A DNA stretch of 64,000 bases, taken from NCBI GenBank assembly GCA_002773535.1, contig PFAZ01000001.1, forward strand, positions 19,226 through 83,225. The letters are read 5' to 3'. The notes beneath the pieces were generated by a model. It had not been told where the DNA came from. It searched no databases and saw only the letters and a program-made list of their open reading frames with translations. The stretch comes from Candidatus Harrisonbacteria bacterium CG10_big_fil_rev_8_21_14_0_10_40_38. GTDB taxonomy: Bacteria; Patescibacteriota; Minisyncoccia; UBA6257; 1-14-0-10-40-38. The first letter of the stretch is position 1; every line of letters begins with the position of its first letter. This document shows positions 16,336 to 62,503 of the stretch, one piece after another. The position numbers and the translations under genes are program-made.

Positions 16336-16851
16336 ATGACAACCCCAACACAGAAAACTGAGCAAGAAGAATTATTGACTTCAGCTCACCAAGACTATGA
16401 AAAAGGCATGAATTCATATGCTAATTTCAAAGTACACAACAACGCAACCGGCAAAGATTTGGTTCAGGATACTTTTATAAAAGCTTGGGCATATCTTGTA
16501 AAATGGGGAAAAGTCGATTTGATGAAATCATTTTTATACCACATTTTAAATCAGCTGATTATTGATGAGTATCGTAGACGTAAAACATCTTCGCTCGATG
16601 TTCTTCGCGAAAAAGGTTTTGAACCGAGTTTTGATCATACAAAAAGCATGGTAAACACTTTTGATGGCAAAAAAGCCATACTCCTGATTCAGCACCTCCC
16701 GGAAAAATACAATAAAATTATGCACATGAGATACACACAAGATCTCTCCATTAAAGAAATAGCGCTTATCACGGGACAGTCTAGAAACGCCGTCGCCGTG
16801 CAAGCATATCGAGGCCTAAAAAAACTTAGAGAATTATATAATCATATATAA
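16336..16851 (+). CDS. ECF-type RNA polymerase sigma factor (sigma-70 regions 2 and 4)
   Basis: DLVQDTFIKAWAYL (region 2) and LSIKEIALITGQSRNAVAVQAYRGLKKLR (region 4 helix-turn-helix). Confidence 0.8.
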   Translation: MTTPTQKTEQEELLTSAHQDYEKGMNSYANFKVHNNATGKDLVQDTFIKAWAYLVKWGKVDLMKSFLYHILNQLIIDEYRRRKTSSLDVLREKGFEPSFDHTKSMVNTFDGKKAILLIQHLPEKYNKIMHMRYTQDLSIKEIALITGQSRNAVAVQAYRGLKKLRELYNHI

Positions 16852-17573: not shown

Positions 17574-17608
17574 CTTAATTCATAATTCATAATTCTTAAT
17601 TCTCTTAA
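17574..17608 (+). repeat. CATAATT-family heptamer tandem array (5 units), upstream of secD
   Basis: The units are cttaatt cataatt cataatt cttaatt ctcttaa. Confidence 0.7.
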
Positions 17609-17660: not shown

Positions 17661-18911
17661 ATGGAAAAACACACGGGTATCCTTCTACTGATTTTAGCTA
17701 TTTCCGTTTTTGGGGCAGTGTTCATCGTCCCGAAACAGTTTGGCGCAGATGTCCTTCCATGGCGTTTGGGGCTCGATCTTGTTGGCGGAGTACATCTTGT
17801 ATACGAAGTTGATATGACTTCAGTCTCGGAGGCTGACAGAGATTCAGTTCATGAAGGCTTAAGAGATGTTATAGCCAAACGCGTTGAAAGAGGAGACAGT
17901 CTTTTGGGTGTAACAGAAGCGCAAGTAGTAACCGCAAAGAGCGGAGACGCATATCGCCTCATCGTTGATCTTCCGGGTGAAAAAGATATAGACGCCGCAG
18001 TAAAAAAGATCGGCGAAACTCCATTTTTATATTTTGCTGAAGTTTCTACCGAAGAAACCGGCACAAGTACTCCAGTAGATATTTTATATACACCCACAGA
18101 ATTAACCGGAAGATACATATCGAGGGCAGAGTTGGTATTAGACCAGTTTTCTGGCAAACCGGTTATCAGTTTGGTCTTCAACGACGAGGGCGCCACAATT
18201 TTTGAAAATTTAACCGAACGCAATGTCGGCAGACAACTCGCAGTATTCGTCGATGACAATGTTATAACAGCGCCGGTTGTACAGGAAAAGATTACCGGAG
18301 GCAGGGCCCAGATTACAGGCGACTTTACCAGAGAAGAGGCGAGTCTCCTCGTCTCCCGTTTTGATGCAGGTGCGCTTTCTGCGCCAATCAGTCGTGTCAG
18401 TCAACAAACAATCGGCGCCACACTAGGCACAGACTCTTTAAAAAGAGTTGTTAAAGCCGGAGCGATCGGCACGGGGTTGGTCATGCTCTTCATGCTTGTC
18501 TATTACAGAAAGTTCGGCATCTTTTCAGCCTGCGCCCTTATCGTATATACAATAATCACTCTTACGATCTTCAAACTTTTCGGCATCACAATGACACTCG
18601 CTGGCGTCGCAGGTTTCATACTCTCGATAGGTATGGCGGTGGACGCAAACATTCTTATATTCGAGCGAAGCAAGGAAGAAATGAAGCGAGGCCTCTCTGC
18701 TATGTCTGCAGTCGAAGAAGGTTTTAAGCGCGCATGGCTCTCAATAAGAGACTCAAACATTTCAACTATCATAACTTCGGTTATTCTCTATTACGCAACA
18801 ACGGGTTTTATAAAAGGTTTTGCTCTCGCCCTCCTTATCGGTGTTTTGGTTTCAATGTTTAGCGCCATAACAGTCACAAGAACATTTCTGCGTGTTTTTA
18901 TAAAAAAATGA
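17661..18911 (+). CDS. secD: Protein translocase subunit SecD
   Basis: N-terminal TM, LDLVGGVHLVYEVD, and a C-terminal 6-TM SecD/F domain. Confidence 0.9.
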   Translation: MEKHTGILLLILAISVFGAVFIVPKQFGADVLPWRLGLDLVGGVHLVYEVDMTSVSEADRDSVHEGLRDVIAKRVERGDSLLGVTEAQVVTAKSGDAYRLIVDLPGEKDIDAAVKKIGETPFLYFAEVSTEETGTSTPVDILYTPTELTGRYISRAELVLDQFSGKPVISLVFNDEGATIFENLTERNVGRQLAVFVDDNVITAPVVQEKITGGRAQITGDFTREEASLLVSRFDAGALSAPISRVSQQTIGATLGTDSLKRVVKAGAIGTGLVMLFMLVYYRKFGIFSACALIVYTIITLTIFKLFGITMTLAGVAGFILSIGMAVDANILIFERSKEEMKRGLSAMSAVEEGFKRAWLSIRDSNISTIITSVILYYATTGFIKGFALALLIGVLVSMFSAITVTRTFLRVFIKK

Positions 18912-19847: not shown

Positions 19848-19996
19848 GGCTATTGCCAAATACACCTGAATAGTTTTATTATAATCTTATAAAAAATACA
19901 GGAAAATCAGTCAATACCCGGCAACCTATTGACATAAAAATATATAAATTGTACACTTATTACAAATATAAATTACCGCAAAAAACGGCAAAATAT

Positions 19997-21055
19997 ATGG
20001 CAACATCAAAACAAAATTCAAATATAGCTTCATTTGTAAACAGCTTTATTGCCGACCTCGACGAAAGACAGCGCGAGGTTATTAAACTTAGATACGGTCT
20101 TGGCGGAAAAGAAGCCCAGACTCTTCAGGCGATAGGAAATAAATACAGCATCACAAGAGAAAGAGTTCGTCAGATCGAATCAATGGCTCTCGGAGCTCTC
20201 CGAAAAAAACTCGATGATGCATATGCAAAAAATTTCATCCAGACAGCCGTTAATCGCCTCAAGCTCGCAGGCAACGTTGAAAAAGAAAATCTCTTTTTTG
20301 CAGAACTAAAGAAAGAACTCGGCGACACAAGCGCAGATGAACCTTTCACAAATTCAGCAAGATTTATTCTTGAACTCTCAGGAAAACTCGGAACGCACAG
20401 ATACAACCACGATCTCGACTGGCACCCACATTGGCACATCACAACCGATGACAAAAAGCGTGCTCACGGGTTTATTTCCAAACTCATTTCAGCTCTAGAT
20501 TCAGAAAAAGAAGAAGTTCTCTCAAAAGACAAGTTTGACGAAGTTTTCAAAGCAGTTGCCAAAGCTTCAAACATTTCCGAGTCAGTTGCTAGAAACTTCA
20601 TCTCAATTTCAAAAAATTTCGGCACCAACGCTTTTGATAAATTCGGTCTCATGAAGTGGCCCGAAATAAATCCAAAGACAGCTCGCGATTGGGCATATCT
20701 CATATTAAAGAGAGAAAATAAACCCCTTCACTTTACTGATCTTGCAAAGACAATCGCAAAATTCAGAAAAGAAAAAAGAGTAAACGTCCAAACAGTTCAC
20801 AACGAGCTTATTAAGGACAATCGCTTTGTCCTCGTAGGACGCGGTCTATATGGCCTTCGCGAACAAGGTCTTATCCCTGGTACAGCGCTTGAGATTATTA
20901 AACACACTCTTACCGAAAATGGCCCGATGCACACCCATGAGGTTGTAGCGACTGTAAAGAAACAGCGCCTCATCAAAGAAGGCACAATCCTTATAAACCT
21001 ACAAAACAAAAAGCATTTCAAATCTCTTCCCGATGGAAGATTCACCCTCTGCTAA
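19997..21055 (+). CDS. Sigma-70 region-4-like HTH domain protein with long C-terminal winged-helix-like region (CPR-typical); the ORF track gives an alternative start at 19949
   Basis: LDERQREVIKLRYGLGGKEAQTLQAIGNKYSITRERVRQIESMALGALRKKL resembles sigma factor region 4. Confidence 0.5.
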   Translation: MATSKQNSNIASFVNSFIADLDERQREVIKLRYGLGGKEAQTLQAIGNKYSITRERVRQIESMALGALRKKLDDAYAKNFIQTAVNRLKLAGNVEKENLFFAELKKELGDTSADEPFTNSARFILELSGKLGTHRYNHDLDWHPHWHITTDDKKRAHGFISKLISALDSEKEEVLSKDKFDEVFKAVAKASNISESVARNFISISKNFGTNAFDKFGLMKWPEINPKTARDWAYLILKRENKPLHFTDLAKTIAKFRKEKRVNVQTVHNELIKDNRFVLVGRGLYGLREQGLIPGTALEIIKHTLTENGPMHTHEVVATVKKQRLIKEGTILINLQNKKHFKSLPDGRFTLC

Positions 21056-21138: not shown

Positions 21139-22380
21139 ATGCAACCAGGAGTTTGGGAATCTATTAAAGAAGTTTTTTCAGCAATTTGGTGGCTGATAGT
21201 ACCTCTAGCCCTCGGTTTTTTTCTTTGGGAACAGTGGCTTAGTTACATAAAAAGAAAATTTGTTATTGAGACAAAGCAGGTTCTTTTGGAAATAAAAATT
21301 CCCCGCGAAGTTCAAAAAACCCCAAAAGCCATGGAGCAGGTTTTTTCTGCTTTCAGAGCAATGTACTCATTCGGATTTAACTGGAAGCAAAAATACATAA
21401 AAGGCGAAGTTGAGCTTTGGCTCTCGCTTGAAATGGTTGGTACCGCGCAGGGCATATTTTTCTATATCCGCACACCAGAGAGTCATAGAAATCTGATCGA
21501 GTCTGCCATCTTTGCTCAATATCCGGAAGTAGAAATCCAAAAAGTTGATGACTACGTAGAAGAGATAGGTATGACGCTCCCAAATGAAGCTTTTGACTTA
21601 TGGGGTGCAGAGTTTACTCTTGCGAGAGACAATCCATACCCGATAAAAACCTATCCGATGTTCGAGGAAAAAATCGAAGAAGCTCAACTTGACCCGCTGT
21701 CGCAGATTATGGAAGTTATGTCCCGTCTTCAGGGAGGTGAAAGGATTATGATCCAAATTCTCGTAAAGCCTATTGGTGATGAACTCGCCAAAGAAGGCGA
21801 AAAACTCCGCGACAAGATTGCAGATAGAAAAAAACCCATTCCCGATCCATCAACAGCCCCTATCGGAAATTTTTTCAAAGATTTAGCCACAGCTCCATTT
21901 AAACAGCCGGAAGTACAGGAAAAAAAGAAAGAAGAAAGAGGCAATCTTCTTATGCTAACCCCGGGCGAGAGGTCAACCTTGGAAGCGATAGAAAAAAAAT
22001 CAGGAAAACTCGCTTTCGAAACTTTAGTCAGATTTGTCTTTGTAGACGACAGAAAGAGCTTCACCCGCTCGCATATTTCAGCTGTTATGGGCGCCATGCA
22101 TCAGTTCAACACAAACGACCTAAATTCATTCAAGCCAAATAAAGATACGCTAACAGCTATTCGCAAAGGTTTTTTCAAAGACCAGCGAACTTATTTAAGA
22201 AAAAGAAAACTTTGGGACAAATTTAAATTTAGAAGATTTTCTCCAAAAGGTTCGTATTTAAACACCGAAGAACTTGCCACTATATTTCACATACCATCAT
22301 TTGCAGTCAAAGCTCCGCTTCTTAGACATGTTCCATCCAAAAAGGGCGAACCACCAGCAGGCCTCCCAATAGAGGAGTAG
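21139..22380 (+). CDS. Membrane-anchored hypothetical protein (413 aa), partner of the downstream VirD4/TraD-like ATPase
   Basis: One N-terminal TM helix (WWLIVPLALGFFLW) followed by a large soluble domain with no recognised motif. Confidence 0.5.
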   Translation: MQPGVWESIKEVFSAIWWLIVPLALGFFLWEQWLSYIKRKFVIETKQVLLEIKIPREVQKTPKAMEQVFSAFRAMYSFGFNWKQKYIKGEVELWLSLEMVGTAQGIFFYIRTPESHRNLIESAIFAQYPEVEIQKVDDYVEEIGMTLPNEAFDLWGAEFTLARDNPYPIKTYPMFEEKIEEAQLDPLSQIMEVMSRLQGGERIMIQILVKPIGDELAKEGEKLRDKIADRKKPIPDPSTAPIGNFFKDLATAPFKQPEVQEKKKEERGNLLMLTPGERSTLEAIEKKSGKLAFETLVRFVFVDDRKSFTRSHISAVMGAMHQFNTNDLNSFKPNKDTLTAIRKGFFKDQRTYLRKRKLWDKFKFRRFSPKGSYLNTEELATIFHIPSFAVKAPLLRHVPSKKGEPPAGLPIEE

Positions 22381-22402
22381 CGTTAAGCGCAAGAACCATG
22401 TC

Positions 22403-22437
22403 CATAATTCATAATTCATACTTCATAATTCATATAT
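22403..22437 (+). repeat. CATAATT-family heptamer tandem array abutting the start codon of 22436..23986
   Basis: The units are cataatt cataatt catactt cataatt catat(ATG). Confidence 0.7.
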
Positions 22438-23986
22438 GAGCGACATCAACTTTTTCGGAAGCACAACTTTCCGAAACCAACAGAAAAAATTTGGCATAAA
22501 AAAAGACGATCGCCGTCGTCACATGTATGTGATAGGAAAAACCGGTGTTGGTAAAACAACGCTTCTCGAAAACATGGCTATTTCAGATATTGTGAACGGA
22601 AACGGGTTGGGCATTATAGATCCTCACGGTGAGTTTGCTGAAAAACTTTTAGAATACATTCCCGAAGAACGCATAGACGATGTCGTTTATTTTGATCCGT
22701 CAGATATAAACTTCCCAATAGCATTCAACCCGTTAGAACAGGTTGATCCTGAGTTTCGCCACCTCGTCGCCTCATCAATCATGGGCGTATTCCAAAAAAT
22801 CTGGATAGACGCATGGTCTGCGAGGATGCAATATATTTTAAATAACACACTCCTAGCCCTTCTCGAAAACCCTGGCACAACACTCCTCTCAATCATGAGG
22901 ATGCTAAATGACAAAAACTATAGAAAGGGTATTGTCGAAAATCTCACCGATCCGGTAGTAAAAAGTTTCTGGGCAAACGAATTTGCAAGATATTCAGAAA
23001 AATTTGAAACCGAAGCCACAGCCGCTATCCAAAACAAAGTCGGTCAGTTCGTCACAAACCCCCTCATCAGAAACATCTTAGGCCAAAAAGTCTCGTCAAT
23101 AGACATGAGAAAGATCATGGATGAAAAAAAGATTTTTATCGTAAACCTCTCAAAGGGAAAGATAGGGGAGGATAACTCGGCCCTTATAGGTTCGATGATT
23201 ATCACAAAGCTCCAACTCGCCGCCATGTCTCGTGTAGATATTCCAGAGAAAGACAGAAACGACTTTTATCTCTACGTAGATGAGTTTCAAAACTTTGCCA
23301 CAGACTCATTTGCAAACATTCTCTCCGAGGCGAGAAAATACCGCCTTTGTCTTGTGCTCGCGCACCAGTACATTCGCCAGCTAACTCACAACGAAAACAC
23401 AAAAGTCAGAGACGCTGTTTTTGGTAACGTGGGAACCATGGTCAGTTTCAGAGTTGGAGCCGATGATGCAGAGTTTTTAGAGCGTGAGTTTCAACCAGAC
23501 TTTCTCGCCACCGATCTTGTAAATCTTGCCAAATATAATGCTTATATAAAACTTATGATAGACGGCATAGCCGCGCGACCATTTTCTGCCGAGTCGCTTC
23601 CGCCAACACCCCTCCCTCCAAAATCATACAAAGAAGACATTATCGAAAATACGAGGCAAAAATACGGCATGGCACGAGAACGTGTAGAAGAAAAAATTAG
23701 AAACGAATGGATGCCATCAGGTGAAAAAGCAGCCGAAGAACTCGTTCAAAGAAGGGGAGAGCAATCCTTAGATAGAGTTTTGAGAAATGCCAAACCTCCG
23801 AAAAAAAATAAACCCGAAAACCAAAACGGATCAAACAGTGAAAACGAAAAACCAAAAGAAAACGAACAAAAGCAAAAAGAAAAAAAAGAAATCAATCTCG
23901 CAGAGTTAAGACAAGCGCTCTCACAGGCCCTAAACGAAAAAAACGTCTCAAAAGAACAAGAACCCGAAGAACCACCGAGTCCATAA
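22436..23986 (+). CDS. P-loop ATPase of the TraD/VirD4 (type IV coupling protein) / FtsK-HerA superfamily
   Basis: Walker A VIGKTGVGKTTLL, Walker B YLYVDEFQNFA, and a LVLAHQYIRQL...FGNVGTMVSFRVG block typical of coupling-protein ATPases; the C-terminus is a Lys/Glu-rich low-complexity tail. Confidence 0.55.
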   Translation: MSDINFFGSTTFRNQQKKFGIKKDDRRRHMYVIGKTGVGKTTLLENMAISDIVNGNGLGIIDPHGEFAEKLLEYIPEERIDDVVYFDPSDINFPIAFNPLEQVDPEFRHLVASSIMGVFQKIWIDAWSARMQYILNNTLLALLENPGTTLLSIMRMLNDKNYRKGIVENLTDPVVKSFWANEFARYSEKFETEATAAIQNKVGQFVTNPLIRNILGQKVSSIDMRKIMDEKKIFIVNLSKGKIGEDNSALIGSMIITKLQLAAMSRVDIPEKDRNDFYLYVDEFQNFATDSFANILSEARKYRLCLVLAHQYIRQLTHNENTKVRDAVFGNVGTMVSFRVGADDAEFLEREFQPDFLATDLVNLAKYNAYIKLMIDGIAARPFSAESLPPTPLPPKSYKEDIIENTRQKYGMARERVEEKIRNEWMPSGEKAAEELVQRRGEQSLDRVLRNAKPPKKNKPENQNGSNSENEKPKENEQKQKEKKEINLAELRQALSQALNEKNVSKEQEPEEPPSP

Positions 23987-24016
23987 TTCATACTCCATAC
24001 TCCATACTTCTATTTT
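23982..24016 (+). repeat. CATAATT-family heptamer array overlapping the stop codon of 22436..23986
   Basis: The units are cataatt catactc catactc catactt ctatttt. Confidence 0.65.
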
Positions 24017-24017
24017 A

Positions 24018-24057
24018 TAAAAAAACCCCCACCCGTGCCTTGCGGCTCGGGTGGGGG
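24018..24057 (-). terminator. Intrinsic terminator for the - strand ORF 24089..24358
   Basis: cccccacccg / cgggtggggg 10-bp GC stem; on the - strand it is followed by a T7 run. Confidence 0.7.
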
Positions 24058-24088
24058 ATTGCGTTGTTAGCAAAAAACTCAATTCATT

Positions 24089-24358
24089 CTATTGCGATTC
24101 TTGCCTCTGTCTTCTCTCGTCACCTATCCTTTTCAAGATCTCGTCAACATCCCTATCTAAATATTTCATGATCGGCTTTAGTAGCCATCTCTCAAATATA
24201 TTTAGTCTCAATTTTTTCATAATAGAAGTCTCGCATTTTTCTATTTCATCATTTTTCTTTTTGATTAGCTCAAGAATCGCTCGCACAACAAGATGATTCA
24301 ATCTATGAGTAGCTTTCAAATACCGAAAAATCGGATATCTAACAATATTTCCCAGCAT
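24089..24358 (-). CDS. Hypothetical small protein (89 aa)
   Basis: An ORF with a strong terminator immediately downstream; no recognisable motif. Confidence 0.4.
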   Translation of the reverse strand: MLGNIVRYPIFRYLKATHRLNHLVVRAILELIKKKNDEIEKCETSIMKKLRLNIFERWLLKPIMKYLDRDVDEILKRIGDERRQRQESQ

Positions 24359-34563: not shown

Positions 34564-35277
34564 ATGACCGATGAAGAAATTCGCGTTCAAGCAATTGAAT
34601 ATGCTAAACGAAATAAGGTTTCCATAGCCAAAAAGCTAACTGATCGCACAAAGTATATGCCGGATATTGTTCCTATTTCAGTTTTTATGGCCGGCTCGCC
34701 GGGTGCAGGCAAAACAGAGTTTTCAAAAAGTTTGATCAGTATTTTAGAAGCAGGCGAAGAGCGTCGCGTAGTACGCATTGACGGGGACGAAGTGCGACTA
34801 CTTATTCCCGACTACACCGGCAATAATTCATATCTTTTTCAGGGAGCAATTTCGCTTGTGGTAGAAAAAATGCATGATTTAGTTTTGCACAACAAACAAA
34901 GTTTTGTACTAGATAGTACGTTCTCAAACTACACTAAAGCCACGGATAATATTCGGCGTTCTTTGGGGAAAAGCAGACCAGTTTTTATTTTTTATATCTA
35001 TCAAAAACCAGAGGTCGCTTGGAACTTCACTCAAGCGAGAGAGAAAGTAGAGGGTAGAAATATTCCGAAATCAGCATTTCTTGATCAGTTTTTTGGCGCT
35101 AGAGAAACAGTGGATAAAATTTCCAGCGAGTTTAGTGATAAAGTAGTAATATTTTTAGTTAAAAAAGATTTTGAGAAAAATTCTGTTGAAAATATAGTTA
35201 AAATCGGACCAGAAAGTAATATTGACGAACATATAACAGAACTCTATACTAAAGATGAACTAGAAAAACGTTTATGA
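34564..35277 (+). CDS. Zeta-toxin / AAA_33 family P-loop kinase
   Basis: Walker A VFMAGSPGAGKTEFSK, an RIDGDEVR segment, and zeta-toxin-like length (237 aa). Confidence 0.6.
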   Translation: MTDEEIRVQAIEYAKRNKVSIAKKLTDRTKYMPDIVPISVFMAGSPGAGKTEFSKSLISILEAGEERRVVRIDGDEVRLLIPDYTGNNSYLFQGAISLVVEKMHDLVLHNKQSFVLDSTFSNYTKATDNIRRSLGKSRPVFIFYIYQKPEVAWNFTQAREKVEGRNIPKSAFLDQFFGARETVDKISSEFSDKVVIFLVKKDFEKNSVENIVKIGPESNIDEHITELYTKDELEKRL

Positions 35278-35456
35278 AACTCTTCAACTTATTTAGAAAA
35301 ACCGAGCAAAAGGAAAAGTCCGGAAAGTTTTCCGACTTCTTTTTGCATGCCTCGGAAAGAAGAAAAGAAGAGATTTTGAAGGAAGCAGCACACAAGGCAA
35401 ATGAAGAACAACGAAAAGTATTTCCGAAATCTCATCTAAAGACAAGGGCCAGATAA
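35274..35456 (+). CDS. Small basic hypothetical protein (60 aa) overlapping the zeta-toxin stop
   Basis: ATGA-type 4-nt overlap with the upstream gene; Lys/Glu-rich. Confidence 0.3.
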   Translation: MKLFNLFRKTEQKEKSGKFSDFFLHASERRKEEILKEAAHKANEEQRKVFPKSHLKTRAR

Positions 35457-35606: not shown

Positions 35607-36791
35607 ATGAATAAAGGCCGTAAAAACAAAACAGTTTTTGTGGGCATGTCGGGTGGCGTAGACTCATCAGTCGCCGCCGCGCTTCTCTCAGCCGAAGGTT
35701 ACGATGTCGTAGGCATTCACCTTCGCTGTTTTAATGTGGATGGATGCGCCGCTCGCGACGCAGAAGACGCTCGCAGAGCCGCCGAGACACTAGGCATTCC
35801 TTTTTATACTCTCGACTTCGAAGAAGAGTACAAAACCAAAGTCGTAAGCTATATGGTCGACGGCTACAGGCAGGGCATCACTCCAAACCCAGATGTCATG
35901 TGCAACCGCGAAATCAAATTCGGCCTCTTTCTAAAAAAAGCACTCGAAATGGGCGCGGACTTTGTCGCAACAGGACATTACGTGAAGAAAGAAGAAAGAA
36001 GAAAGAAGAAAGAACTAAAAACACATTCCTCGTTCATCATTCCTCATTTATCTCTATCTATCGCCAAAGACGGCAACAAGGATCAAAGCTACTTCCTCTG
36101 GACCTTAACGCAAGACGACCTCAAGCATTGTCTCTTTCCGATAGGGGAATATAAAAAACCCGAAGTAAGAAAACTTGCAAAAAAATACAATCTCCCAAAC
36201 GCAGAGAAAAAAGATTCGCAAGGTATTTGTTTTTTAGGGCAAGTAACATTAAGTGATTTTCTAAAAGACTACATTCCCGAAAAGAAAGGCGCAGTGGTAA
36301 CAGAGTCAGGCGAAAAGATAGGCGAGCACATTGGCGCGCACTTCTATACCATCGGCCAGAGACATATTGGAGTAACAAATACGAGAGGAAAGAGGAAAGA
36401 GGAAAGAGGAAAGAACACCGAGCCGTTTTATGTTTCAGGAAAAAATATAAAAACAAATGAAGTAATCGTTGCCGAAGGTTCAGAAAACCCAAACCTCTAC
36501 AGAAAAGAAATAAATCTCGCAAACGTAAACTTCATAAACCAAAATTTGGAATTTGGTGCTTGTGATTTGGAATTTCCCGTTCTGGCACGGGTCCGCTACC
36601 GTCAACCGCTCGTGAAGGCGATGCTTAAAGTAAAATGTGACACGCAAAATGGAAAAACAAAAACCAGTTCACATTCCGCTTGTCACTTTTCCCTCAAATT
36701 TGACCAGCCGGTCAAATTTGTAGCCGAAGGCCAATCGGCCGTTTTCTATTCAAAGTCTGGCGAAATGCTCGGCGGCGGAGTTATTGTTTAA
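35607..36791 (+). CDS. mnmA: tRNA-specific 2-thiouridylase MnmA, carrying two low-complexity insertions
   Basis: VFVGMSGGVDSSVAA, NPDVMCNREIKF, DSQGICFLG; inserts KKEERRKKKE and RGKRKEERGK encoded by the (gaaagaa)n and (agaggaa)n tandem repeats. Confidence 0.9.
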   Translation: MNKGRKNKTVFVGMSGGVDSSVAAALLSAEGYDVVGIHLRCFNVDGCAARDAEDARRAAETLGIPFYTLDFEEEYKTKVVSYMVDGYRQGITPNPDVMCNREIKFGLFLKKALEMGADFVATGHYVKKEERRKKKELKTHSSFIIPHLSLSIAKDGNKDQSYFLWTLTQDDLKHCLFPIGEYKKPEVRKLAKKYNLPNAEKKDSQGICFLGQVTLSDFLKDYIPEKKGAVVTESGEKIGEHIGAHFYTIGQRHIGVTNTRGKRKEERGKNTEPFYVSGKNIKTNEVIVAEGSENPNLYRKEINLANVNFINQNLEFGACDLEFPVLARVRYRQPLVKAMLKVKCDTQNGKTKTSSHSACHFSLKFDQPVKFVAEGQSAVFYSKSGEMLGGGVIV

Positions 36792-37137: not shown

Positions 37138-37170
37138 CCTCCGGCACCAAAGCCGGAGGTTTTCTTTTTT
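37138..37170 (+). terminator. Intrinsic terminator
   Basis: cctccggc-accaaa-gccggagg followed by ttttctttttt. Confidence 0.8.
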
Positions 37171-37296
37171 AAAATTTCATTTCCCACCCCATCCACGTAT
37201 AATAAAAATACGTAAGTCGTAAGTTTTTAGTTGTCAGTTGATTACTGTCATTCCGAGCGAAGCGAGATCCTGAGTCGCACCGAAGGCTTCCAAGTC

Positions 37297-37331
37297 CATA
37301 ATTTATAATTCCAACTTCATAATTCTAAAAA
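37297..37331 (+). repeat. CATAATT-family heptamer array ending 2 nt before the start of 37334
   Basis: The units are cataatt tataatt ccaactt cataatt ctaaaaa. Confidence 0.7.
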
Positions 37332-37872: not shown

Positions 37873-37907
37873 CATAATTCATTATTCATAATTCTTAATT
37901 CATTTTC
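37873..37907 (+). repeat. CATAATT-family heptamer array ending 2 nt before the start of comEC
   Basis: The units are cataatt cattatt cataatt cttaatt cattttc. Confidence 0.7.
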
Positions 37908-46584: not shown

Positions 46585-46878
46585 ATGAGGAAATTAGAAG
46601 GAAAAATTGTATCAGATAAAATGACCAAAACTGTTGTAGTGGCGGTCGAGCATTCGCGAAAACACCCGCGCTACTTGAAGTATGTAAAAATCACCAAACG
46701 CCTCAAAGCCCACGATGAAAAAGGCGAGTATCATACCGGTGATCAGGTTGTCATTCAGGAAACTAGACCAATAAGCAAAGATAAGAGATGGATAGTGATT
46801 GGCAGAATTTCCGGTGAAAACAAAAAAGCCGAAATCGTCGAAAAGCCAGAAGCCGAAAGTGAAGCACCAGACGCATAA
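46585..46878 (+). CDS. rpsQ: 30S ribosomal protein S17
   Basis: [19 protein letters not shown]...[27 protein letters not shown]. Confidence 0.92.
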
Positions 46879-46908
46879 TTTTTACTTCTCAATTCATATT
46901 TCAAAAAC

Positions 46909-47277
46909 ATGTTACAGGAAAGATCAATCATAAAAGTTGCAGATAACAGCGGGGCAAAAATTGTCTCTTGTTTCCGCATCTTAGGTGGAAGCCGAAAACG
47001 CTATGCGAAAGTAGGTGATATTTTGATCGCTTCCGTAAAAGTCGCAGAACCGAGAAAGCCGATAAAGAAAAAAGATATTATTAAAGCTCTCGTTGTAAGA
47101 ACAAGTCACCCCATAAGACGCAAGGATGGGGGAGTTGTCAGGTTTGACGAAAACGCAGTCGTTGTCATCGACGAAAAGGGTGAGCCAAAATCAACCCGTG
47201 TCTTCGGCCCTATCCCAAGAGAGATAAAAGAAAAGGGTTATACGTCGGTGTTCTCAATGGCAGAAGAAATTGTATAA
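46909..47277 (+). CDS. rplN: 50S ribosomal protein L14
   Basis: MLQERSIIKVADNSGAK... Confidence 0.95.
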   Translation: MLQERSIIKVADNSGAKIVSCFRILGGSRKRYAKVGDILIASVKVAEPRKPIKKKDIIKALVVRTSHPIRRKDGGVVRFDENAVVVIDEKGEPKSTRVFGPIPREIKEKGYTSVFSMAEEIV

Positions 47278-57283: not shown

Positions 57284-57329
57284 AATTCCTAAATTTTCCA
57301 TTTTGATTTTTGATTTATAATTTATAAAC

Positions 57330-58672: not shown

Positions 58673-59632
58673 ATGAAAAGAAAAATTGGGGTTATTTTTG
58701 GCGGGACATCACGCGAACACAAAGTCTCGCTAAGTTCCGGCAAAACAGTTCTAAATTCATTAGACACAAAAAAATACGAAATCATACCGGTTAAAATCGA
58801 AAAAAACGGAAAGTGGACAATCGGAAAAAATAAACCAAAAGAAGAACTCGAAGCTCTTAAAATTCTAAAGAAAAAAATAGACGTCGCGTTTATTGTCCTT
58901 CACGGCACAAAAGGGGAAGACGGTACGATTCAAGGTCTTCTAGAATTTTTAGATATCCCATATACAGGTTCAAATGTCGAAGCGAGCGCTCTCGCCATGG
59001 ATAAAGAAAGATCCGCAGAAATTTTTAAAGCAAACGGTCTCACTGTTCCAAAATCTATCTGCATCACAAGAAAAAATCGTAAAACATCGTCAAACATTAA
59101 AATTCCCTGCATTGTAAAACCAGCCGACAACGGATCAAGTGTAGGCATCGCGCTTGTAAGAAAAAAAGAAGATTTGAATAACGCTATAGATAAGGCGCTA
59201 AAAATCAGCGAGCGTGTTTTGGTTCAGGAATATATAAAAGGCGACGAAGTTACCTGCGCTGTGCTGGATGATGGCAAAAAAATCAAACCACTCACGCCAA
59301 CTCATATTATCCCAAAATCGTCAGATTTTTTTGATTACCACGCAAAATATACACATGGCGCCACAGAAGAGGTAACTCCTCCAAGACTACCGGCAAACAC
59401 CGTCAAACAAATACAAAAAATTGCGGTAAAAGCACATAGCATCTTAGGTTGCTCCGGCGTCTCACGTACGGATATGATAATTAAAGGAAAGAAGATATTT
59501 ATTCTTGAAACAAATACAATCCCTGGCATGACAAAAACAAGTCTCCTGCCTCAAGCCTCGGCCCATGCAGGTATACCATTTTCCAAACTCCTCAATATAC
59601 TCATTGAGTCCGCCACCAAAAACCATAATTAG
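58673..59632 (+). CDS. ddl: D-alanine--D-alanine ligase
   Basis: IGVIFGGTSREHKVSLSSG; ATP-grasp. Confidence 0.9.
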   Translation: MKRKIGVIFGGTSREHKVSLSSGKTVLNSLDTKKYEIIPVKIEKNGKWTIGKNKPKEELEALKILKKKIDVAFIVLHGTKGEDGTIQGLLEFLDIPYTGSNVEASALAMDKERSAEIFKANGLTVPKSICITRKNRKTSSNIKIPCIVKPADNGSSVGIALVRKKEDLNNAIDKALKISERVLVQEYIKGDEVTCAVLDDGKKIKPLTPTHIIPKSSDFFDYHAKYTHGATEEVTPPRLPANTVKQIQKIAVKAHSILGCSGVSRTDMIIKGKKIFILETNTIPGMTKTSLLPQASAHAGIPFSKLLNILIESATKNHN

Positions 59633-59652
59633 CAATTTATACTTCCTGATTC

Positions 59653-60774
59653 ATGAAAAAAAACAAAACCTGGATAGAGATTAAAAAATCAGCTCTCGAA
59701 AACAACATAAAACAATTTCGAAAACTGATTCCAAATAAAACACAGCTCTGGTCTGTGGTTAAATCAAATGCCTACGGGCATGGACTTACAACTTTTGCAA
59801 AACTTGCCGAAGATGCGGGTGTTGATGGTTTTTGCGTCGACTCTGTGGTGGAGGGTGCGAAACTCCGTGAAACAGGCATTAAAAAACCAATTCTCGTTTT
59901 AGGCCCAACGGTTGCACCCAACGGATTTCTCATCGAAGCCGCCGCAAACGATATAACTGTCACAGTTTCGACAGAAGAGGGTCTTGTTCAAATTGAGCAG
60001 GCAAAAGCAAAACCAAAATTTCATATAAAAGTAGACACAGGCATGCATCGTCAGGGTTTTTATCCAAACGACCTCCTAAAAATTTTAAAAAAAATAAAAT
60101 CACCAATTCGTGATTCTTTTACCGGTCTCTATACCCACTTCGCATCTGCAAAAGACATAAGCTACCCGACTTACACAGACGGACAATTTAAAAAATTTAA
60201 AGAAGCAATCAAACACTGTGAGTCAGCCGGTTTTAAAAATCTCACATACCACTCGGCGGCAACAGGCGGAACTTTGGTAAATACAAAATATACCGAAGAC
60301 GTGGTACGCATAGGAATCGGTCTATATGGTCTCTGGCCATCAGGAGAACTTGAAACACAGCTAAGTGATAAAATATCGCTAAAACCCGTACTCTCATGGC
60401 GCGCAATAATAAGCGAGATAAAAGAAGTGGAAAAAGGGCACTATATTGGATATGACCTCACAGAGCGCGCCACAAAAAAAACCAAACTTGCAGTCATCCC
60501 TATTGGATACTGGCATGGATTTGATAGATCACTATCAGGCATCGGAAATGTTCTCATAGCCGGCAAGCGCGCAAAAGTTATGGGCCGCGTTTCTATGGAT
60601 CTTATAGTAGTAGATGTAAGCGGTATTACTTGCAAAGTAGGCGACACAGCAACCCTTATCGGAAGCAGTGGTAGCGATGAGATCCCAGCCGGAGAAATGG
60701 CAAGGTTTGCAAACACAACCCACTACGAAACAATAACTCGCATAAACCCTCTAATTGAGCGAATAGTAGTGTAA
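59653..60774 (+). CDS. alr: Alanine racemase
   Basis: VVKSNAYGHG PLP-binding motif. Confidence 0.9.
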   Translation: MKKNKTWIEIKKSALENNIKQFRKLIPNKTQLWSVVKSNAYGHGLTTFAKLAEDAGVDGFCVDSVVEGAKLRETGIKKPILVLGPTVAPNGFLIEAAANDITVTVSTEEGLVQIEQAKAKPKFHIKVDTGMHRQGFYPNDLLKILKKIKSPIRDSFTGLYTHFASAKDISYPTYTDGQFKKFKEAIKHCESAGFKNLTYHSAATGGTLVNTKYTEDVVRIGIGLYGLWPSGELETQLSDKISLKPVLSWRAIISEIKEVEKGHYIGYDLTERATKKTKLAVIPIGYWHGFDRSLSGIGNVLIAGKRAKVMGRVSMDLIVVDVSGITCKVGDTATLIGSSGSDEIPAGEMARFANTTHYETITRINPLIERIVV

Positions 60775-62254: not shown

Positions 62255-62379
62255 TACAAAAATACATAATCGAAAAAAATAAACTCAACTGTCAATCAAA
62301 CTTGACACAACAGTAAAATTCAGTAAACTAAAAAAAGTTAGAACCATCTGCTTCCTTTGGGTGGTTCCGACTCTGTGAG

Positions 62380-62421
62380 CCTCATAAGAGCCCTAAAAAG
62401 CTCTTATGAGGATTTTTCTTG
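62380..62421 (+). terminator. Intrinsic terminator (second in the same intergenic region)
   Basis: cctcataagagc-cctaaaaa-gctcttatgagg 12-bp stem followed by atttttctt. Confidence 0.8.
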
Positions 62422-62461: not shown

Positions 62462-62503
62462 CGTAATTCATAATTCATACTTCACAACTCATAATTCACG
62501 TTT
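62462..62503 (+). repeat. CATAATT-family heptamer array abutting the ychF start codon
   Basis: The units are cgtaatt cataatt catactt cacaact cataatt cacgttt(ATG). Confidence 0.7.

What the first reader, a model, noticed from the sequence alone, without database searches (positions are those of the whole stretch)
22403..22437. Family of six CATAATT heptamer tandem arrays at gene boundaries, several abutting start codons with no Shine-Dalgarno
Six arrays were found: 17574..17608, 22403..22437, 23982..24016, 37297..37331, 37873..37907 and 62462..62503. Each consists of 5-6 degenerate 7-bp units (cataatt / catactt / cttaatt). All are in the same orientation on the + strand. Four end 0-2 nt before an ATG (the VirD4-like ATPase, cobO, comEC and ychF), leaving no room for an SD. 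One lies 52 nt upstream of secD and one overlaps a stop codon. The 7-bp periodicity and the multiple TATAAT-like hexamers suggest an unusual promoter or leaderless-initiation element. They might alternatively be a regulator binding array or the insertion scar of a small repeat element.
Basis: seen in the sequence. Interest (0 to 1): 0.65.

Follow-up and report, generated by a model that had tools for sequence, protein, structure and literature searches.

The report
CATAATT heptamer repeats before start codons
Short runs of the 7-base unit CATAATT sit just in front of several genes in this tiny groundwater bacterium; such repeats are already known in other bacteria, their function is still unknown, and the missing ribosome-binding site applies to every gene here.

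Summary
Eight (not six) degenerate (CATAATT)4-6 arrays lie on the + strand and none on the - strand; shuffles predict zero. Six of them end 0-8 nt before well-supported ATG starts.

The "no Shine-Dalgarno" point is not specific to the arrays. None of the 62 ATG-start ORFs of at least 100 aa scored in this Candidatus Harrisonbacteria (CPR) window has an SD-like motif.

The arrays match a known but functionally unresolved class: intergenic heptanucleotide tandem repeats (Mrazek's LSSR, cyanobacterial STRR). Their anatomy matches the TAACTGA repeats of Beggiatoaceae almost point for point.

- They are absent at orthologous spacers in the nearest relatives, where other lineage-specific heptamer arrays sometimes sit.
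- They are identical in four independent assemblies.
- (CATAATT)n occurs in more than 100 species of many phyla. Same-composition control heptamers are only 2-4 times rarer in viral contigs.

Best reading: these are products of a heptamer-biased repeat process. They survive only in the sense orientation in leaders and intercistronic spacers, where they carry no G, no start codon, stops in all frames and no structure, and so pass as SD-less leaders. A promoter role (CATAAT resembles a -10 box) is a live rival for two arrays. This is a new member of a known kind, of moderate interest.

The parts
17574..17608 (+). Array 1: CTTAATT CATAATT CATAATT CTTAATT CTCTTAA. It lies in the divergent region between the GIY-YIG gene/tRNA-Lys (- strand) and secD, and ends 52 nt before the secD ATG at 17661.
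22403..22437 (+). Array 2: CATAATT CATAATT CATACTT CATAATT CATATAT. It starts 22 nt after the stop of ORF 21139..22380, and its last partial unit overlaps the ATG (22436) of the VirD4/TrwB-like coupling-protein gene.
23982..24016 (+). Array 3: CATAATT CATACTC CATACTC CATACTT CTATTTT. Its first unit supplies the TAA stop (23984-23986) of the VirD4-like gene. It lies in the 3' UTR, just before the bidirectional terminator hairpin at 24026-24058.
37297..37331 (+). Array 4: CATAATT TATAATT CCAACTT CATAATT CTAAAAA. It ends 2 nt before the cobO ATG (37334) and lies about 140 nt downstream of the intrinsic terminator at 37138-37159.
37873..37907 (+). Array 5: CATAATT CATTATT CATAATT CTTAATT CATTTTC. 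It starts 11 nt after the cobO stop and ends 2 nt before the comEC ATG (37910).
46874..46901 (+). Unit 1 supplies the TAA stop of rpsQ (S17). The array ends 7 nt before the rplN (L14) ATG at 46909.
59624..59651 (+). It overlaps the TAG stop of ddl (59630-59632) and ends 1 nt before the alr ATG at 59653.
62462..62503 (+). Array 8: CGTAATT CATAATT CATACTT CACAACT CATAATT CACGTTT. It abuts the ychF ATG (62504) with no gap and starts 50 nt after the strong intrinsic terminator at 62380-62411.
37138..37159 (+). Intrinsic terminator upstream of array 4 (context). It implies that the cobO promoter lies within about 175 nt that include the array.
62380..62411 (+). Intrinsic terminator upstream of array 8 (context). 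It implies that the ychF promoter lies within 83 nt, half of which is the array. TTCATA-17-CATAAT at 62467-62495 is flagged as promoter-like.

Best explanation
The arrays are a lineage-specific family of sense-strand heptanucleotide tandem repeats. They belong with the intergenic LSSR/STRR repeats and have the same anatomy as the TAACTGA repeats of Beggiatoaceae.

SHOWN:
- There are eight co-oriented arrays of 4-6 units in about 74 kb, all in non-coding spacers.
- Six end within 8 nt of a genuine ATG, and three donate or overlap the upstream stop codon.
- They are absent at orthologous spacers in relatives and invariant across four assemblies.
- Period 7 is by far the dominant tandem-repeat period in this clade, even inside genes.

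INFERRED:
1. Origin. They arise from the heptamer-biased expansion and dispersal process typical of CPR, Bacteroidota and Cyanobacteria. Each lineage ends up with its own favoured unit.
2. Filtering. Selection decides where they survive. (CATAATT)n has TAA in all three frames, so it cannot persist inside ORFs. Its reverse complement (AATTATG)n carries an AUG and a UGA in every frame. That would create decoy starts ahead of genes in a genome that selects starts without an SD.
3. Tolerated position. In the sense orientation the RNA (CAUAAUU)n has no G, no start codon and no predicted structure. It therefore passes as, and probably serves as, the A/U-rich open leader or intercistronic spacer that SD-independent initiation needs here. 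The likely readers are ribosomal protein S1 or cold-shock-domain proteins, whose binding sites hold about 7 nt (this last point is from memory).
4. Extra role. For cobO and ychF the array must also hold or adjoin the promoter.

This is not a new initiation signal and not a substitute for a missing SD.
For: - Reality and orientation: 7-8 arrays on the + strand, 0 on the - strand, 0 expected.
- Abutment to starts: p = 9e-5.
- Genome-wide lack of SD: 0 of 62 scored ORFs.
- The arrays are unstructured: fold z-scores +1.1 and +1.4. Initiation regions next to arrays fold at -4.9 versus -8.0 kcal/mol for the others, p = 0.04.
- Not conserved. The 82%-identical cobO relative L123 has plain AT-rich spacers before cobO and comEC. 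None of about 80 VirD4-like orthologous loci carries a CATAATT array. The geneX-VirD4 and ychF spacers in other lineages hold different heptamer arrays: TACGAAA, AATTTGG, TTTACTA.
- Heptamer bias. There are 15 period-7 arrays versus 0-4 for every other period from 4 to 12 in 957 kb of CPR DNA. The 120 genome loci hold 206 versus 5 or fewer. In-frame heptamer arrays sit inside mnmA.
- Operon-internal positions (S17-L14, ddl-alr) and a (CATAATT)3 array just after rpoB in L093 favour a leader or spacer role over a promoter.
- Across phyla, forward-oriented arrays cluster 0-8 nt before the first start codon (22 of 59). In SD-using taxa they precede the SD.
- Same anatomy as published for TAACTGA (PMC4679880).
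- (CATAATT)3 is common but not unique: 92 viral stretches versus 53 and 23 for two same-composition controls.
Against: - No transcript or ribosome data exist, so transcription of the arrays is assumed, not shown.
- Start-codon accessibility is no better next to arrays than at other genes (0.60 versus 0.59). Orthologs manage without arrays. Any benefit is therefore small or nil.
- Tolerance alone does not explain why the arrays end exactly at the ATG.
- The same unit at eight loci looks more like dispersal of one element, or like a unit-specific binding factor, than like independent slippage. Five of 8 arrays share an ACTT variant in unit 3. Three of 8 share GTC directly 5' of the array, within a looser CCnnnGTC flank seen in 3-5.
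- Normal leaders in this genome are A-rich (44% A, 28% T). The arrays are T-rich (43% T).
Confidence: 0.45

Rival explanations
1. Promoter array. The tandem CATAAT hexamers act as overlapping -10 elements, with TTCATA falling 17 bp upstream as a weak -35 once 4-5 units are present. They drive leaderless or very short-leader transcripts of the downstream gene.
For: - CATAAT matches TATAAT at 5 of 6 positions, including A2 and T6. Array 4 holds a perfect TATAAT.
- Strong terminators at 37138-37159 and 62380-62411 force the cobO and ychF promoters into the 175-nt and 83-nt stretches that contain the arrays.
- The scan flags TTCATA-17-CATAAT at 62467-62495, which predicts a TSS about 2 nt before the ychF ATG.
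- The last CATAAT ends 6 nt (VirD4-like) and 8 nt (ychF) before the ATG.
- Other genes here carry TATAAT 6-7 nt before the ATG, for example mnmA with TTCCCA-17-TATAAT-7-ATG.
- The relative L123 has TACAAT-N6-ATG at cobO.
Against: - Four arrays are inside operons, a (CATAATT)3 array in L093 lies just after rpoB, and one array is in a 3' UTR.
- Spacing from the last CATAAT-like hexamer to the ATG is 6, 8, 10 and 10 nt, not a sharp 6-7.
- The consensus scan finds a -35/-10 pair lying wholly inside an array only in array 8. Overall, promoter-like hits are no more frequent than in shuffles.
- The sister phenomenon TAACTGA is not -10-like. Bacteroidota, which use TAnnTTTG promoters, show the same abutment of CATAATT arrays to start codons.
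Confidence: 0.22
2. Heptad-binding regulon. A lineage-specific protein binds one unit per monomer or dimer and co-regulates the flanked genes. The protein could act on DNA (RHH/omega-like, or H-NS/ToxT-like as at the ctxAB TTTTGAT heptads) or on RNA (cold-shock domain or S1).
For: - One unit dominates all intergenic arrays of this genome, while relatives use other units in the same spacers. That is what a co-evolving binding protein would produce.
- The arrays are 4-6 contiguous units long.
- Precedents: the omega repressor binds 7-bp WATCACW heptads (from memory); the ctxAB promoter carries TTTTGAT heptads (bioRxiv 10.1101/2021.05.14.444153, listed); an unidentified heptamer-binding partner is postulated in Nostoc; MacGregor proposed S1, Csp or CsrA.
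Against: - No candidate binding protein was identified in the window.
- The flanked genes (secD, T4SS-like ATPase, cobO, comEC, rplN, alr, ychF) share no obvious function.
- The arrays decay freely, from 1 to 8 mismatches per 28 nt, and are not conserved in relatives.
Confidence: 0.13
3. Mobile-element footprint or dispersed mini-element. The arrays are copies of one element of about 35-45 nt, or the terminal repeats or scars of small selfish gene cassettes, spread by insertion rather than by in-situ slippage. On this reading they have no host function.
For: - Shared higher-order signature: an ACTT variant in unit 3 in 5 of 8 arrays, and GTC directly 5' of the array in 3 of 8, within a looser CCnnnGTC flank (3-5 of 8). 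A similar left flank, ACCTATC, occurs in L093.
- In other genomes inverted heptamer arrays flank small selfish genes. A PDDEXK_3 gene lies between inverted TACGAAA arrays in L158, at the very junction that holds array 2 here. 23S_rRNA_IVP genes lie between inverted CATAATT arrays in L035 and L052.
- Three arrays replace the upstream stop codon, as an insertion would.
Against: - There are no inverted partners, no target-site duplications and no cassette genes next to the window arrays, and no array on the - strand.
- The unit-3 coincidence is only marginal (about p = 0.03-0.06 by hand estimate).
- A selfish element would not by itself end exactly at start codons.
Confidence: 0.15
4. Phase-variable contingency repeats. 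Gain and loss of units switches expression of the downstream gene.
For: [quoted passage not shown]
Against: - Contigs from four independent assemblies (3300004209, 3300004210, 3300025850, SRR6240789) are 100% identical across arrays 4, 5, 7 and 8.
- The units are degenerate, which suppresses slippage.
- The flanked genes are housekeeping genes.
Confidence: 0.03

Closest known systems
TAACTGA intergenic direct repeats of marine Beggiatoaceae, also in some Cyanobacteria and Bacteroidetes (MacGregor 2015, PMC4679880)
   Same: - The unit is 7 nt, with 2-6 copies per set and many sets per genome sharing one unit.
- Sets are in forward orientation to the downstream gene, and the largest class ends about 1 nt before the start codon.
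- No RBS is present. Some sets overlap the end of the upstream ORF, and some lie in ribosomal-protein operons.
- The unit contains stop codons, so it is excluded from ORFs in the forward orientation.
- No RNA structure is predicted, and the function is unknown.
   Different: - The unit differs: CATAATT, which is -10-like and G-free, versus TAACTGA.
- The host is a CPR/Paceibacterota bacterium with a small genome.
- The reverse complement of CATAATT is also closed to translation and carries AUGs, whereas reverse TAACTGA is translatable.
- Only eight sets were seen here, in 74 kb.
Long simple sequence repeats with 5-11 nt units, mainly heptanucleotides (Mrazek et al. 2007, as summarised in PMC4679880 and PMC4692102), and cyanobacterial STRR heptamers (Calothrix/Nostoc)
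   Same: - They are tandem heptamers, mostly intergenic.
- Each genome has its own dominant units.
- The phyletic distribution is patchy.
- A heptamer-specific slippage bias has been proposed as their origin.
   Different: - STRR units are different and G/C-containing (CCCCAGT and others, from memory), and those arrays are often much longer.
- No emphasis on start-codon abutment is reported for them.
GGGAATC / GGGGA(T/C)T heptamer repeats of Xanthomonas and Nostoc (Rehm et al. 2015, PMC4692102)
   Same: [quoted passage not shown]
- They also occur as inverted pairs.
- They are not tied to one functional gene class.
   Different: Those repeats are G-rich and can form G-quadruplexes. CATAATT arrays are G-free and unstructured.
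TTTTGAT heptad repeats of the Vibrio cholerae ctxAB promoter, and omega-repressor WATCACW heptads (the latter from memory)
   Same: Both are contiguous 7-bp direct repeats just upstream of a gene that serve as protein-binding arrays.
   Different: - Each occurs at a single locus or on a plasmid and has a known binding protein.
- They lie upstream of the -35 element, not abutting start codons.
- The sequences are different.
A/U-rich, SD-independent translational enhancers read by ribosomal protein S1, such as the TMV omega leader with ACAAUUAC repeats (from memory)
   Same: The leader RNA is G-poor, A/U-rich, repetitive and unstructured, and lies directly 5' of the start codon.
   Different: This is a functional analogy only. 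No binding or enhancement has been shown here, and accessibility is no better than at other genes.

Membership tests
Intergenic heptanucleotide tandem repeats (LSSR / STRR type) | Head-to-tail copies of a 7-nt unit, longer than chance allows | tested here: met
   TRF reports period 7 with 4.1-5.9 copies. Eight loci were observed against 0.0 expected in 200 shuffles.
Intergenic heptanucleotide tandem repeats (LSSR / STRR type) | Predominantly non-coding location, with the same unit recurring at many loci of one genome | tested here: met
   All eight arrays lie in spacers, and only their first units touch stop codons. All share the CATAATT consensus.
Intergenic heptanucleotide tandem repeats (LSSR / STRR type) | Period 7 over-represented relative to other periods in the host clade | tested here: met
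   There are 15 period-7 arrays versus 0-4 for each other period from 4 to 12 in 957 kb of Paceibacterota loci. The 120 genome loci hold 206 versus 5 or fewer.
TAACTGA-type start-proximal heptamer repeats (MacGregor 2015) | Forward orientation, ending within a few nt of the start codon, with no RBS | tested here: met
   Six of 8 arrays end 0-8 nt before an ATG, and all are in the sense orientation. No SD is present.
TAACTGA-type start-proximal heptamer repeats (MacGregor 2015) | The unit sequence is TAACTGA | tested here: not met
   The unit is CATAATT, and no TAACTGA array appears in the TRF output. The arrays therefore work like this family but are not members by sequence.
Sigma-70 promoter | A -10 hexamer (A2, T6) with a -35 hexamer 16-18 bp upstream | tested here: inconclusive
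   A -10-like CATAAT occurs in every unit. A -35/-10 pair lying wholly inside an array is flagged only in array 8 (62467-62495). At array 4 the second hexamer falls inside cobO. Overall hit counts equal those of shuffles.
Sigma-70 promoter | A mapped transcription start 6-9 nt downstream of the -10 element | not testable with these tools
   No transcriptome data are available for this uncultured organism.
Phase-variable contingency SSR | Copy number varies between strains or samples | tested here: not met
   Four independent assemblies are 100% identical over arrays 4, 5, 7 and 8. Only consensus assemblies were compared, so minor variants cannot be excluded.
MITE / REP-like dispersed element | Terminal inverted repeats or a stable hairpin, with target-site duplication | tested here: not met
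   No reverse-oriented copy exists in the window. The arrays fold no better than shuffles. No flanking direct repeats are visible in the alignment.
Known structured RNA families (Rfam 15) | A covariance-model match | tested here: not met
   Only tRNA-Lys reaches gathering score in the whole window. No hit with E of 1 or less was found around arrays 4, 5 and 8.
Omega-type heptad operator (RHH repressor) | WATCACW heptads together with a cognate RHH repressor gene | tested here: not met
   The unit sequence differs. No RHH or omega domain was found among the 35 window ORFs scanned with Pfam. Not all window ORFs were scanned.

The most novel reading that the evidence does not exclude
Heptamer arrays may be the visible product of an active, still unidentified system rather than of passive slippage. 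That system would be shared by CPR, Bacteroidota, Cyanobacteria and a few other phyla. It would write or spread lineage-specific 7-nt units into leaders and spacers. It could be linked to the small selfish cassettes (PDDEXK_3/GxxExxY and 23S-IVS four-helix-bundle genes) that are flanked by inverted heptamer arrays. A cognate heptad-reading protein (cold-shock domain, S1 or similar) would then use the arrays as an SD-replacing ribosome-recruitment or regulon signal.
Probability: 0.1. Interest if true: 0.8.

Novelty: new member of a known kind. Interest (0 to 1): 0.4.

Why it matters
Start-codon-abutting heptamer repeats have been reported in Beggiatoaceae, cyanobacteria and Bacteroidetes for over a decade without a mechanism.

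Finding the same anatomy in a Candidatus Harrisonbacteria genome (CPR; the longest contig carrying these genes is about 443 kb) adds three things:
- It extends the phenomenon to a third major SD-poor lineage.
- It offers a very compact system in which few candidate binding proteins exist.
- It shows that orthologous spacers in sister lineages carry different heptamer units.

The last point argues for a lineage-specific determinant of the unit. If the arrays prove to be read by the translation machinery or by a heptad-binding protein, that would explain how start sites are marked in SD-less bacteria. If they are only tolerated junk, they still show which sequences an SD-less initiation region can accept.

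Tried and rejected
- SD replacement specific to array genes: rejected, because the window as a whole lacks SDs.
- Known RNA family or riboswitch: no Rfam hit.
- Structured RNA: the arrays fold worse than shuffles.
- Better start-codon accessibility next to arrays: not seen, 0.60 versus 0.59.
- Conservation in relatives: none. The relatives checked were L123, L124 and L126-128 for cobO/comEC, about 80 VirD4-like loci, and L382/L383 for ychF.
- Strain-level copy-number variation: none in four assemblies. No closer relative than 82% (cobO) or 73% (ychF) exists in the protein database, so stepwise array evolution could not be followed.
- CATAATT as a uniquely special heptamer shared by horizontal transfer: weakened. 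Same-composition controls (CAATTAT)3 and (CTTAAAT)3 are only 1.7 and 4 times rarer in viral contigs. The genomes that hold CATAATT arrays also hold dozens of other heptamer units.
- Universal orientation rule across phyla: not found. There were 59 forward-upstream versus 52 reverse-upstream arrays. The reverse cases near starts are partly artefacts of ATGs inside the array.
- Same-site hotspot in mnmA: the two lineages' arrays lie about 6 codons apart in one permissive loop, not at the same site.
- Extending the genome beyond the window: only 10 kb more was obtained on the right, with no further array.
- The single genome-contig scan and the single metagenome-contig scan were both spent. A whole-MAG census was therefore not possible.

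Full report
**Observation**

The six reported arrays are present at the stated coordinates. A phase-locked scan for (CATAATT)4 finds them all on the + strand and adds two decayed members. One lies at 46874-46901, between rpsQ (S17) and rplN (L14). The other lies at 59624-59651, between ddl and alr. No copy lies on the - strand. Two hundred shuffles gave no locus with 6 or fewer mismatches on either strand.

The gene assignments hold:
- the VirD4-like gene matches TrwB_AAD_bind and T4SS-DNA_transf;
- cobO matches CobA_CobO_BtuR;
- comEC matches Competence;
- ychF and secD are confirmed as named.

The start codons are well supported. Homologs align from residues 1-3, and Pfam models cover the N-termini.

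Four arrays end 0-2 nt before an ATG. The two new ones end 7 and 1 nt before one. One array ends 52 nt before secD. One sits in the 3' UTR of the VirD4-like gene, between its stop codon and a bidirectional terminator hairpin of -32 kcal/mol. Three arrays supply or overlap the upstream stop codon.

Under uniform placement within conservatively delimited spacers, the chance that at least 4 of 5 arrays end within 2 nt of the ATG is 9e-5.

**Organism and background**

The window is 100% identical to contigs from four metagenome assemblies. Its proteins are named by NCBI as Candidatus Harrisonbacteria bacterium CG10_big_fil_rev (CPR/Paceibacterota).

No gene scored in the window has a Shine-Dalgarno sequence. 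None of the 62 ATG-start ORFs of at least 100 aa has GGAG, GAGG or AGGA at -18..-4. In a looser listing of 78 ORFs, the only clear SD is GGAGG before a small - strand ORF. Upstream regions are A-rich, typically 'aaaaat ATG'.

A subset of genes that follow larger gaps has TATAAT-like hexamers 6-7 nt before the ATG, which suggests leaderless transcripts. Examples are mnmA (TTCCCA-17-TATAAT-7-ATG) and the cobO gene of relative L123.

'No room for an SD' is therefore a property of the genome, not of the arrays.

**What kind of thing it is**

Heptanucleotide tandem repeats are a recognised class:
- Mrazek et al. 2007 found heptamers to be the most abundant long simple-sequence repeats with 5-11 nt units (as summarised in PMC4679880 and PMC4692102).
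- Cyanobacteria have the STRR heptamers.
- Xanthomonas and Nostoc have GGGAATC and GGGGAYT repeats.
- MacGregor 2015 described 169 sets of TAACTGA repeats in an uncultured Beggiatoaceae genome.

The TAACTGA sets have 2-6 copies in forward orientation, and most end about 1 nt before a start codon. They lack an RBS, some overlap the upstream ORF end, and some lie in ribosomal-protein operons. The unit carries stop codons, and no RNA structure is predicted. The window's arrays reproduce this anatomy with a different unit.

A Nostoc preprint also reports contiguous heptamers near start codons or promoters, with unresolved regulatory effects.

**Distribution of the unit**

The hits fall in Bacteroidota, Cyanobacteria, Lentisphaerae, Spirochaetes, Chloroflexi, Firmicutes and one Paceibacterota genome.

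Those loci also hold 82 other period-7 arrays with about 56 different units, against 5 or fewer arrays for any other period.

In viral contigs (CATAATT)3 gives 92 stretches. Two same-composition controls give 53 and 23.

CATAATT is thus a frequent heptamer-repeat unit but not a unique signal. Its wide occurrence needs no horizontal transfer.

Contexts differ between genomes:
- short hairpin-forming inverted pairs;
- positions between divergent Bacteroidota TAnnTTTG boxes;
- parts of larger dispersed repeats;
- forward-oriented arrays that cluster 0-8 nt before the first possible start codon (22 of 59), and that precede the SD in SD-using taxa.

In L093, another Paceibacterota genome, (CATAATT)3 lies 9 nt after the rpoB stop and 8 nt before the next ATG. 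That ATG is presumed to start rpoC; the ORF runs off the locus and was not checked.

**Evolution**

The closest cobO relative (82% aa identity, L123) has plain AT-rich spacers before cobO and comEC. More distant relatives also lack arrays there.

None of about 80 Paceibacterota loci orthologous for the VirD4-like gene has a CATAATT array. The conserved geneX-VirD4 junction is usually 0-40 nt long. In several lineages, however, it holds other heptamer or octamer arrays: TACGAAA inverted pairs, AATTTGG and CTAGTAAG. It can also hold small selfish genes. A PDDEXK_3 gene lies between inverted TACGAAA arrays in L158, and a 23S_rRNA_IVP gene lies there in L169.

A 73% ychF relative has (TTTACTA)~6 upstream of ychF.

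Period 7 dominates tandem repeats in CPR loci, with 15 arrays versus 0-4 for each other period. It appears even inside genes. The mnmA gene in the window carries two perfect arrays, (GAAGAAA)4.4 and (AGAGGAA)4.4, in frame. L126 carries a reverse-oriented (AATTAAG/AATTATG)5 array in the same loop, and there a TAT replaces the TAA that would stop translation.

The arrays are therefore young, lineage-specific and decaying, from 1 to 8 mismatches per 28 nt. They are nevertheless invariant across four assemblies, which argues against phase variation.

Two features hint at common descent or gene conversion between arrays rather than eight independent local expansions:
- Five of 8 arrays have the ACTT variant in unit 3.
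- Three of 8 have GTC directly 5' of the array, within a looser CCnnnGTC flank that 3-5 of them share. L093 has the similar flank ACCTATC.

The statistical support for this is marginal.

**Mechanism**

The properties of the sequence are direct. (CATAATT)n reads CAT ATA TAA AAT ATT TTC TCA. It has no canonical start codon, a TAA in every frame once three units are present, and no G. The reverse complement reads AAT ATT TTA TAT ATG TGA GAA, with an AUG and a UGA in every frame.

The arrays fold no better than shuffles (z = +1.1 and +1.4). Initiation regions next to arrays are slightly less structured overall (-4.9 versus -8.0 kcal/mol, p = 0.04). Their start codons are no more accessible than others.

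My preferred reading has two parts. First, a heptamer-biased repeat process generates and spreads the arrays. Second, selection filters them, so they survive only outside ORFs and in the sense orientation ahead of genes. There they mimic, and probably serve as, the open A/U-rich leader that SD-less initiation requires.

The operon-internal positions (S17-L14, ddl-alr, cobO-comEC, geneX-VirD4, and the spacer after rpoB in L093) fit a transcribed spacer better than a promoter.

For cobO and ychF the array must also contain or adjoin the promoter. Strong intrinsic terminators lie about 140 nt (37138-37159) and 50 nt (62380-62411) upstream of those two arrays. The scan flags TTCATA-17-CATAAT at 62467-62495, which would start transcription about 2 nt before the ychF ATG.

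The exact abutment to the ATG and the single dominant unit per lineage are not explained by tolerance alone. They keep two rivals alive: a unit-specific binding factor (S1, a cold-shock domain, or a DNA-binding heptad reader) and a dispersing mini-element.

**Verdict**

The arrays are a new member, in a new phylum and with a new unit, of a known but mechanistically unsolved kind of repeat.

Interest is moderate. The finding is not surprising as a category. It does offer a compact system for the open question of what start-proximal heptamer repeats do in SD-poor bacteria. It also yielded a side observation worth testing at scale: inverted heptamer arrays flank small selfish cassettes.

Noticed in passing
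window 35984-36014 and 36384-36414 (inside mnmA, 35607..36791); L126 8525-8559: Two perfect heptamer arrays, (GAAGAAA)4.4 and (AGAGGAA)4.4, lie in frame inside mnmA. A 68%-related lineage carries a reverse-oriented (AATTAAG/AATTATG)5 array in the same surface loop. In it, one unit has TAT where TAA would stop translation.
   Followed up: partly
L158 1591-2075; L145 1707-1840; L169 9550-10000 (the junction orthologous to window 22381-22435): In other Paceibacterota the spacer before the VirD4-like gene holds small selfish genes. L158 has a PDDEXK_3/GxxExxY nuclease flanked by inverted (TACGAAA)n arrays. L145 has the same inverted arrays without the gene. L169 has a 23S_rRNA_IVP four-helix-bundle gene.
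   Followed up: partly
L035 5321-5845; L052 2492-3032 (Bacteroidales MAGs): Inverted (CATAATT)n arrays flank 120-aa 23S_rRNA_IVP genes on both sides, like terminal inverted repeats or an RNase III stem. This association between heptamer arrays and selfish cassettes may deserve a systematic test.
   Followed up: partly
L382 482-525: A 73%-identical ychF relative has a different heptamer array, (TTTACTA) in about 6 copies, some 65 nt upstream of ychF. The same spacer thus carries a different unit in another lineage.
   Followed up: no
L093 2012-2032 (- strand): (CATAATT)3 lies 9 nt after the rpoB stop codon and 8 nt before the next ATG in another Candidatus Paceibacterota genome. That ATG is presumed to start rpoC; the ORF runs off the locus and was not verified.
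   Followed up: partly
window 62302-62420: A promoter-like site (TTGACA-16-TAAACT, 62302-62329) is followed by a strong intrinsic terminator (62380-62411). Both lie within a 527-nt non-coding stretch. This could be an unannotated small RNA of about 85 nt. There is no Rfam match.
   Followed up: partly
window 34564-35456: A zeta-toxin family gene (34564..35277) is followed by an overlapping 60-aa ORF with no Pfam match. This may be a toxin-antitoxin pair in an unusual gene order.
   Followed up: no
window 24026-24358: A bidirectional terminator hairpin (24026-24058, about -32 kcal/mol) follows the small - strand ORF 24089..24358. That ORF is the only one in the window preceded by a strong GGAGG Shine-Dalgarno, so it may be foreign.
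   Followed up: no
window 57301-57327 and about 37207-37220: Other short heptamer duplications occur. TTTTGAT TTTTGAT TTATAAT TTATAA lies directly before the seryl-tRNA synthetase ATG (57330). (CGTAAGT)2 lies in the cobO upstream region, which is about 130 nt longer than in relative L123.
   Followed up: no
window 16336-16851 and 19949-21055: An ECF-type sigma factor and a protein with Sigma70_r4 plus HARE-HTH domains lie near arrays 1 and 2. No link to the arrays was tested.
   Followed up: no
L025, L026, L065, L077, L086 (Lentisphaeria MAGs): Composite repeats of the form (GAATGCT)n-GAGGCGCATYT-(CATAATT)n-CGTTAGGG-(GCGAGGG)n recur many times. Here CATAATT arrays are modules of a larger dispersed repeat.
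   Followed up: no
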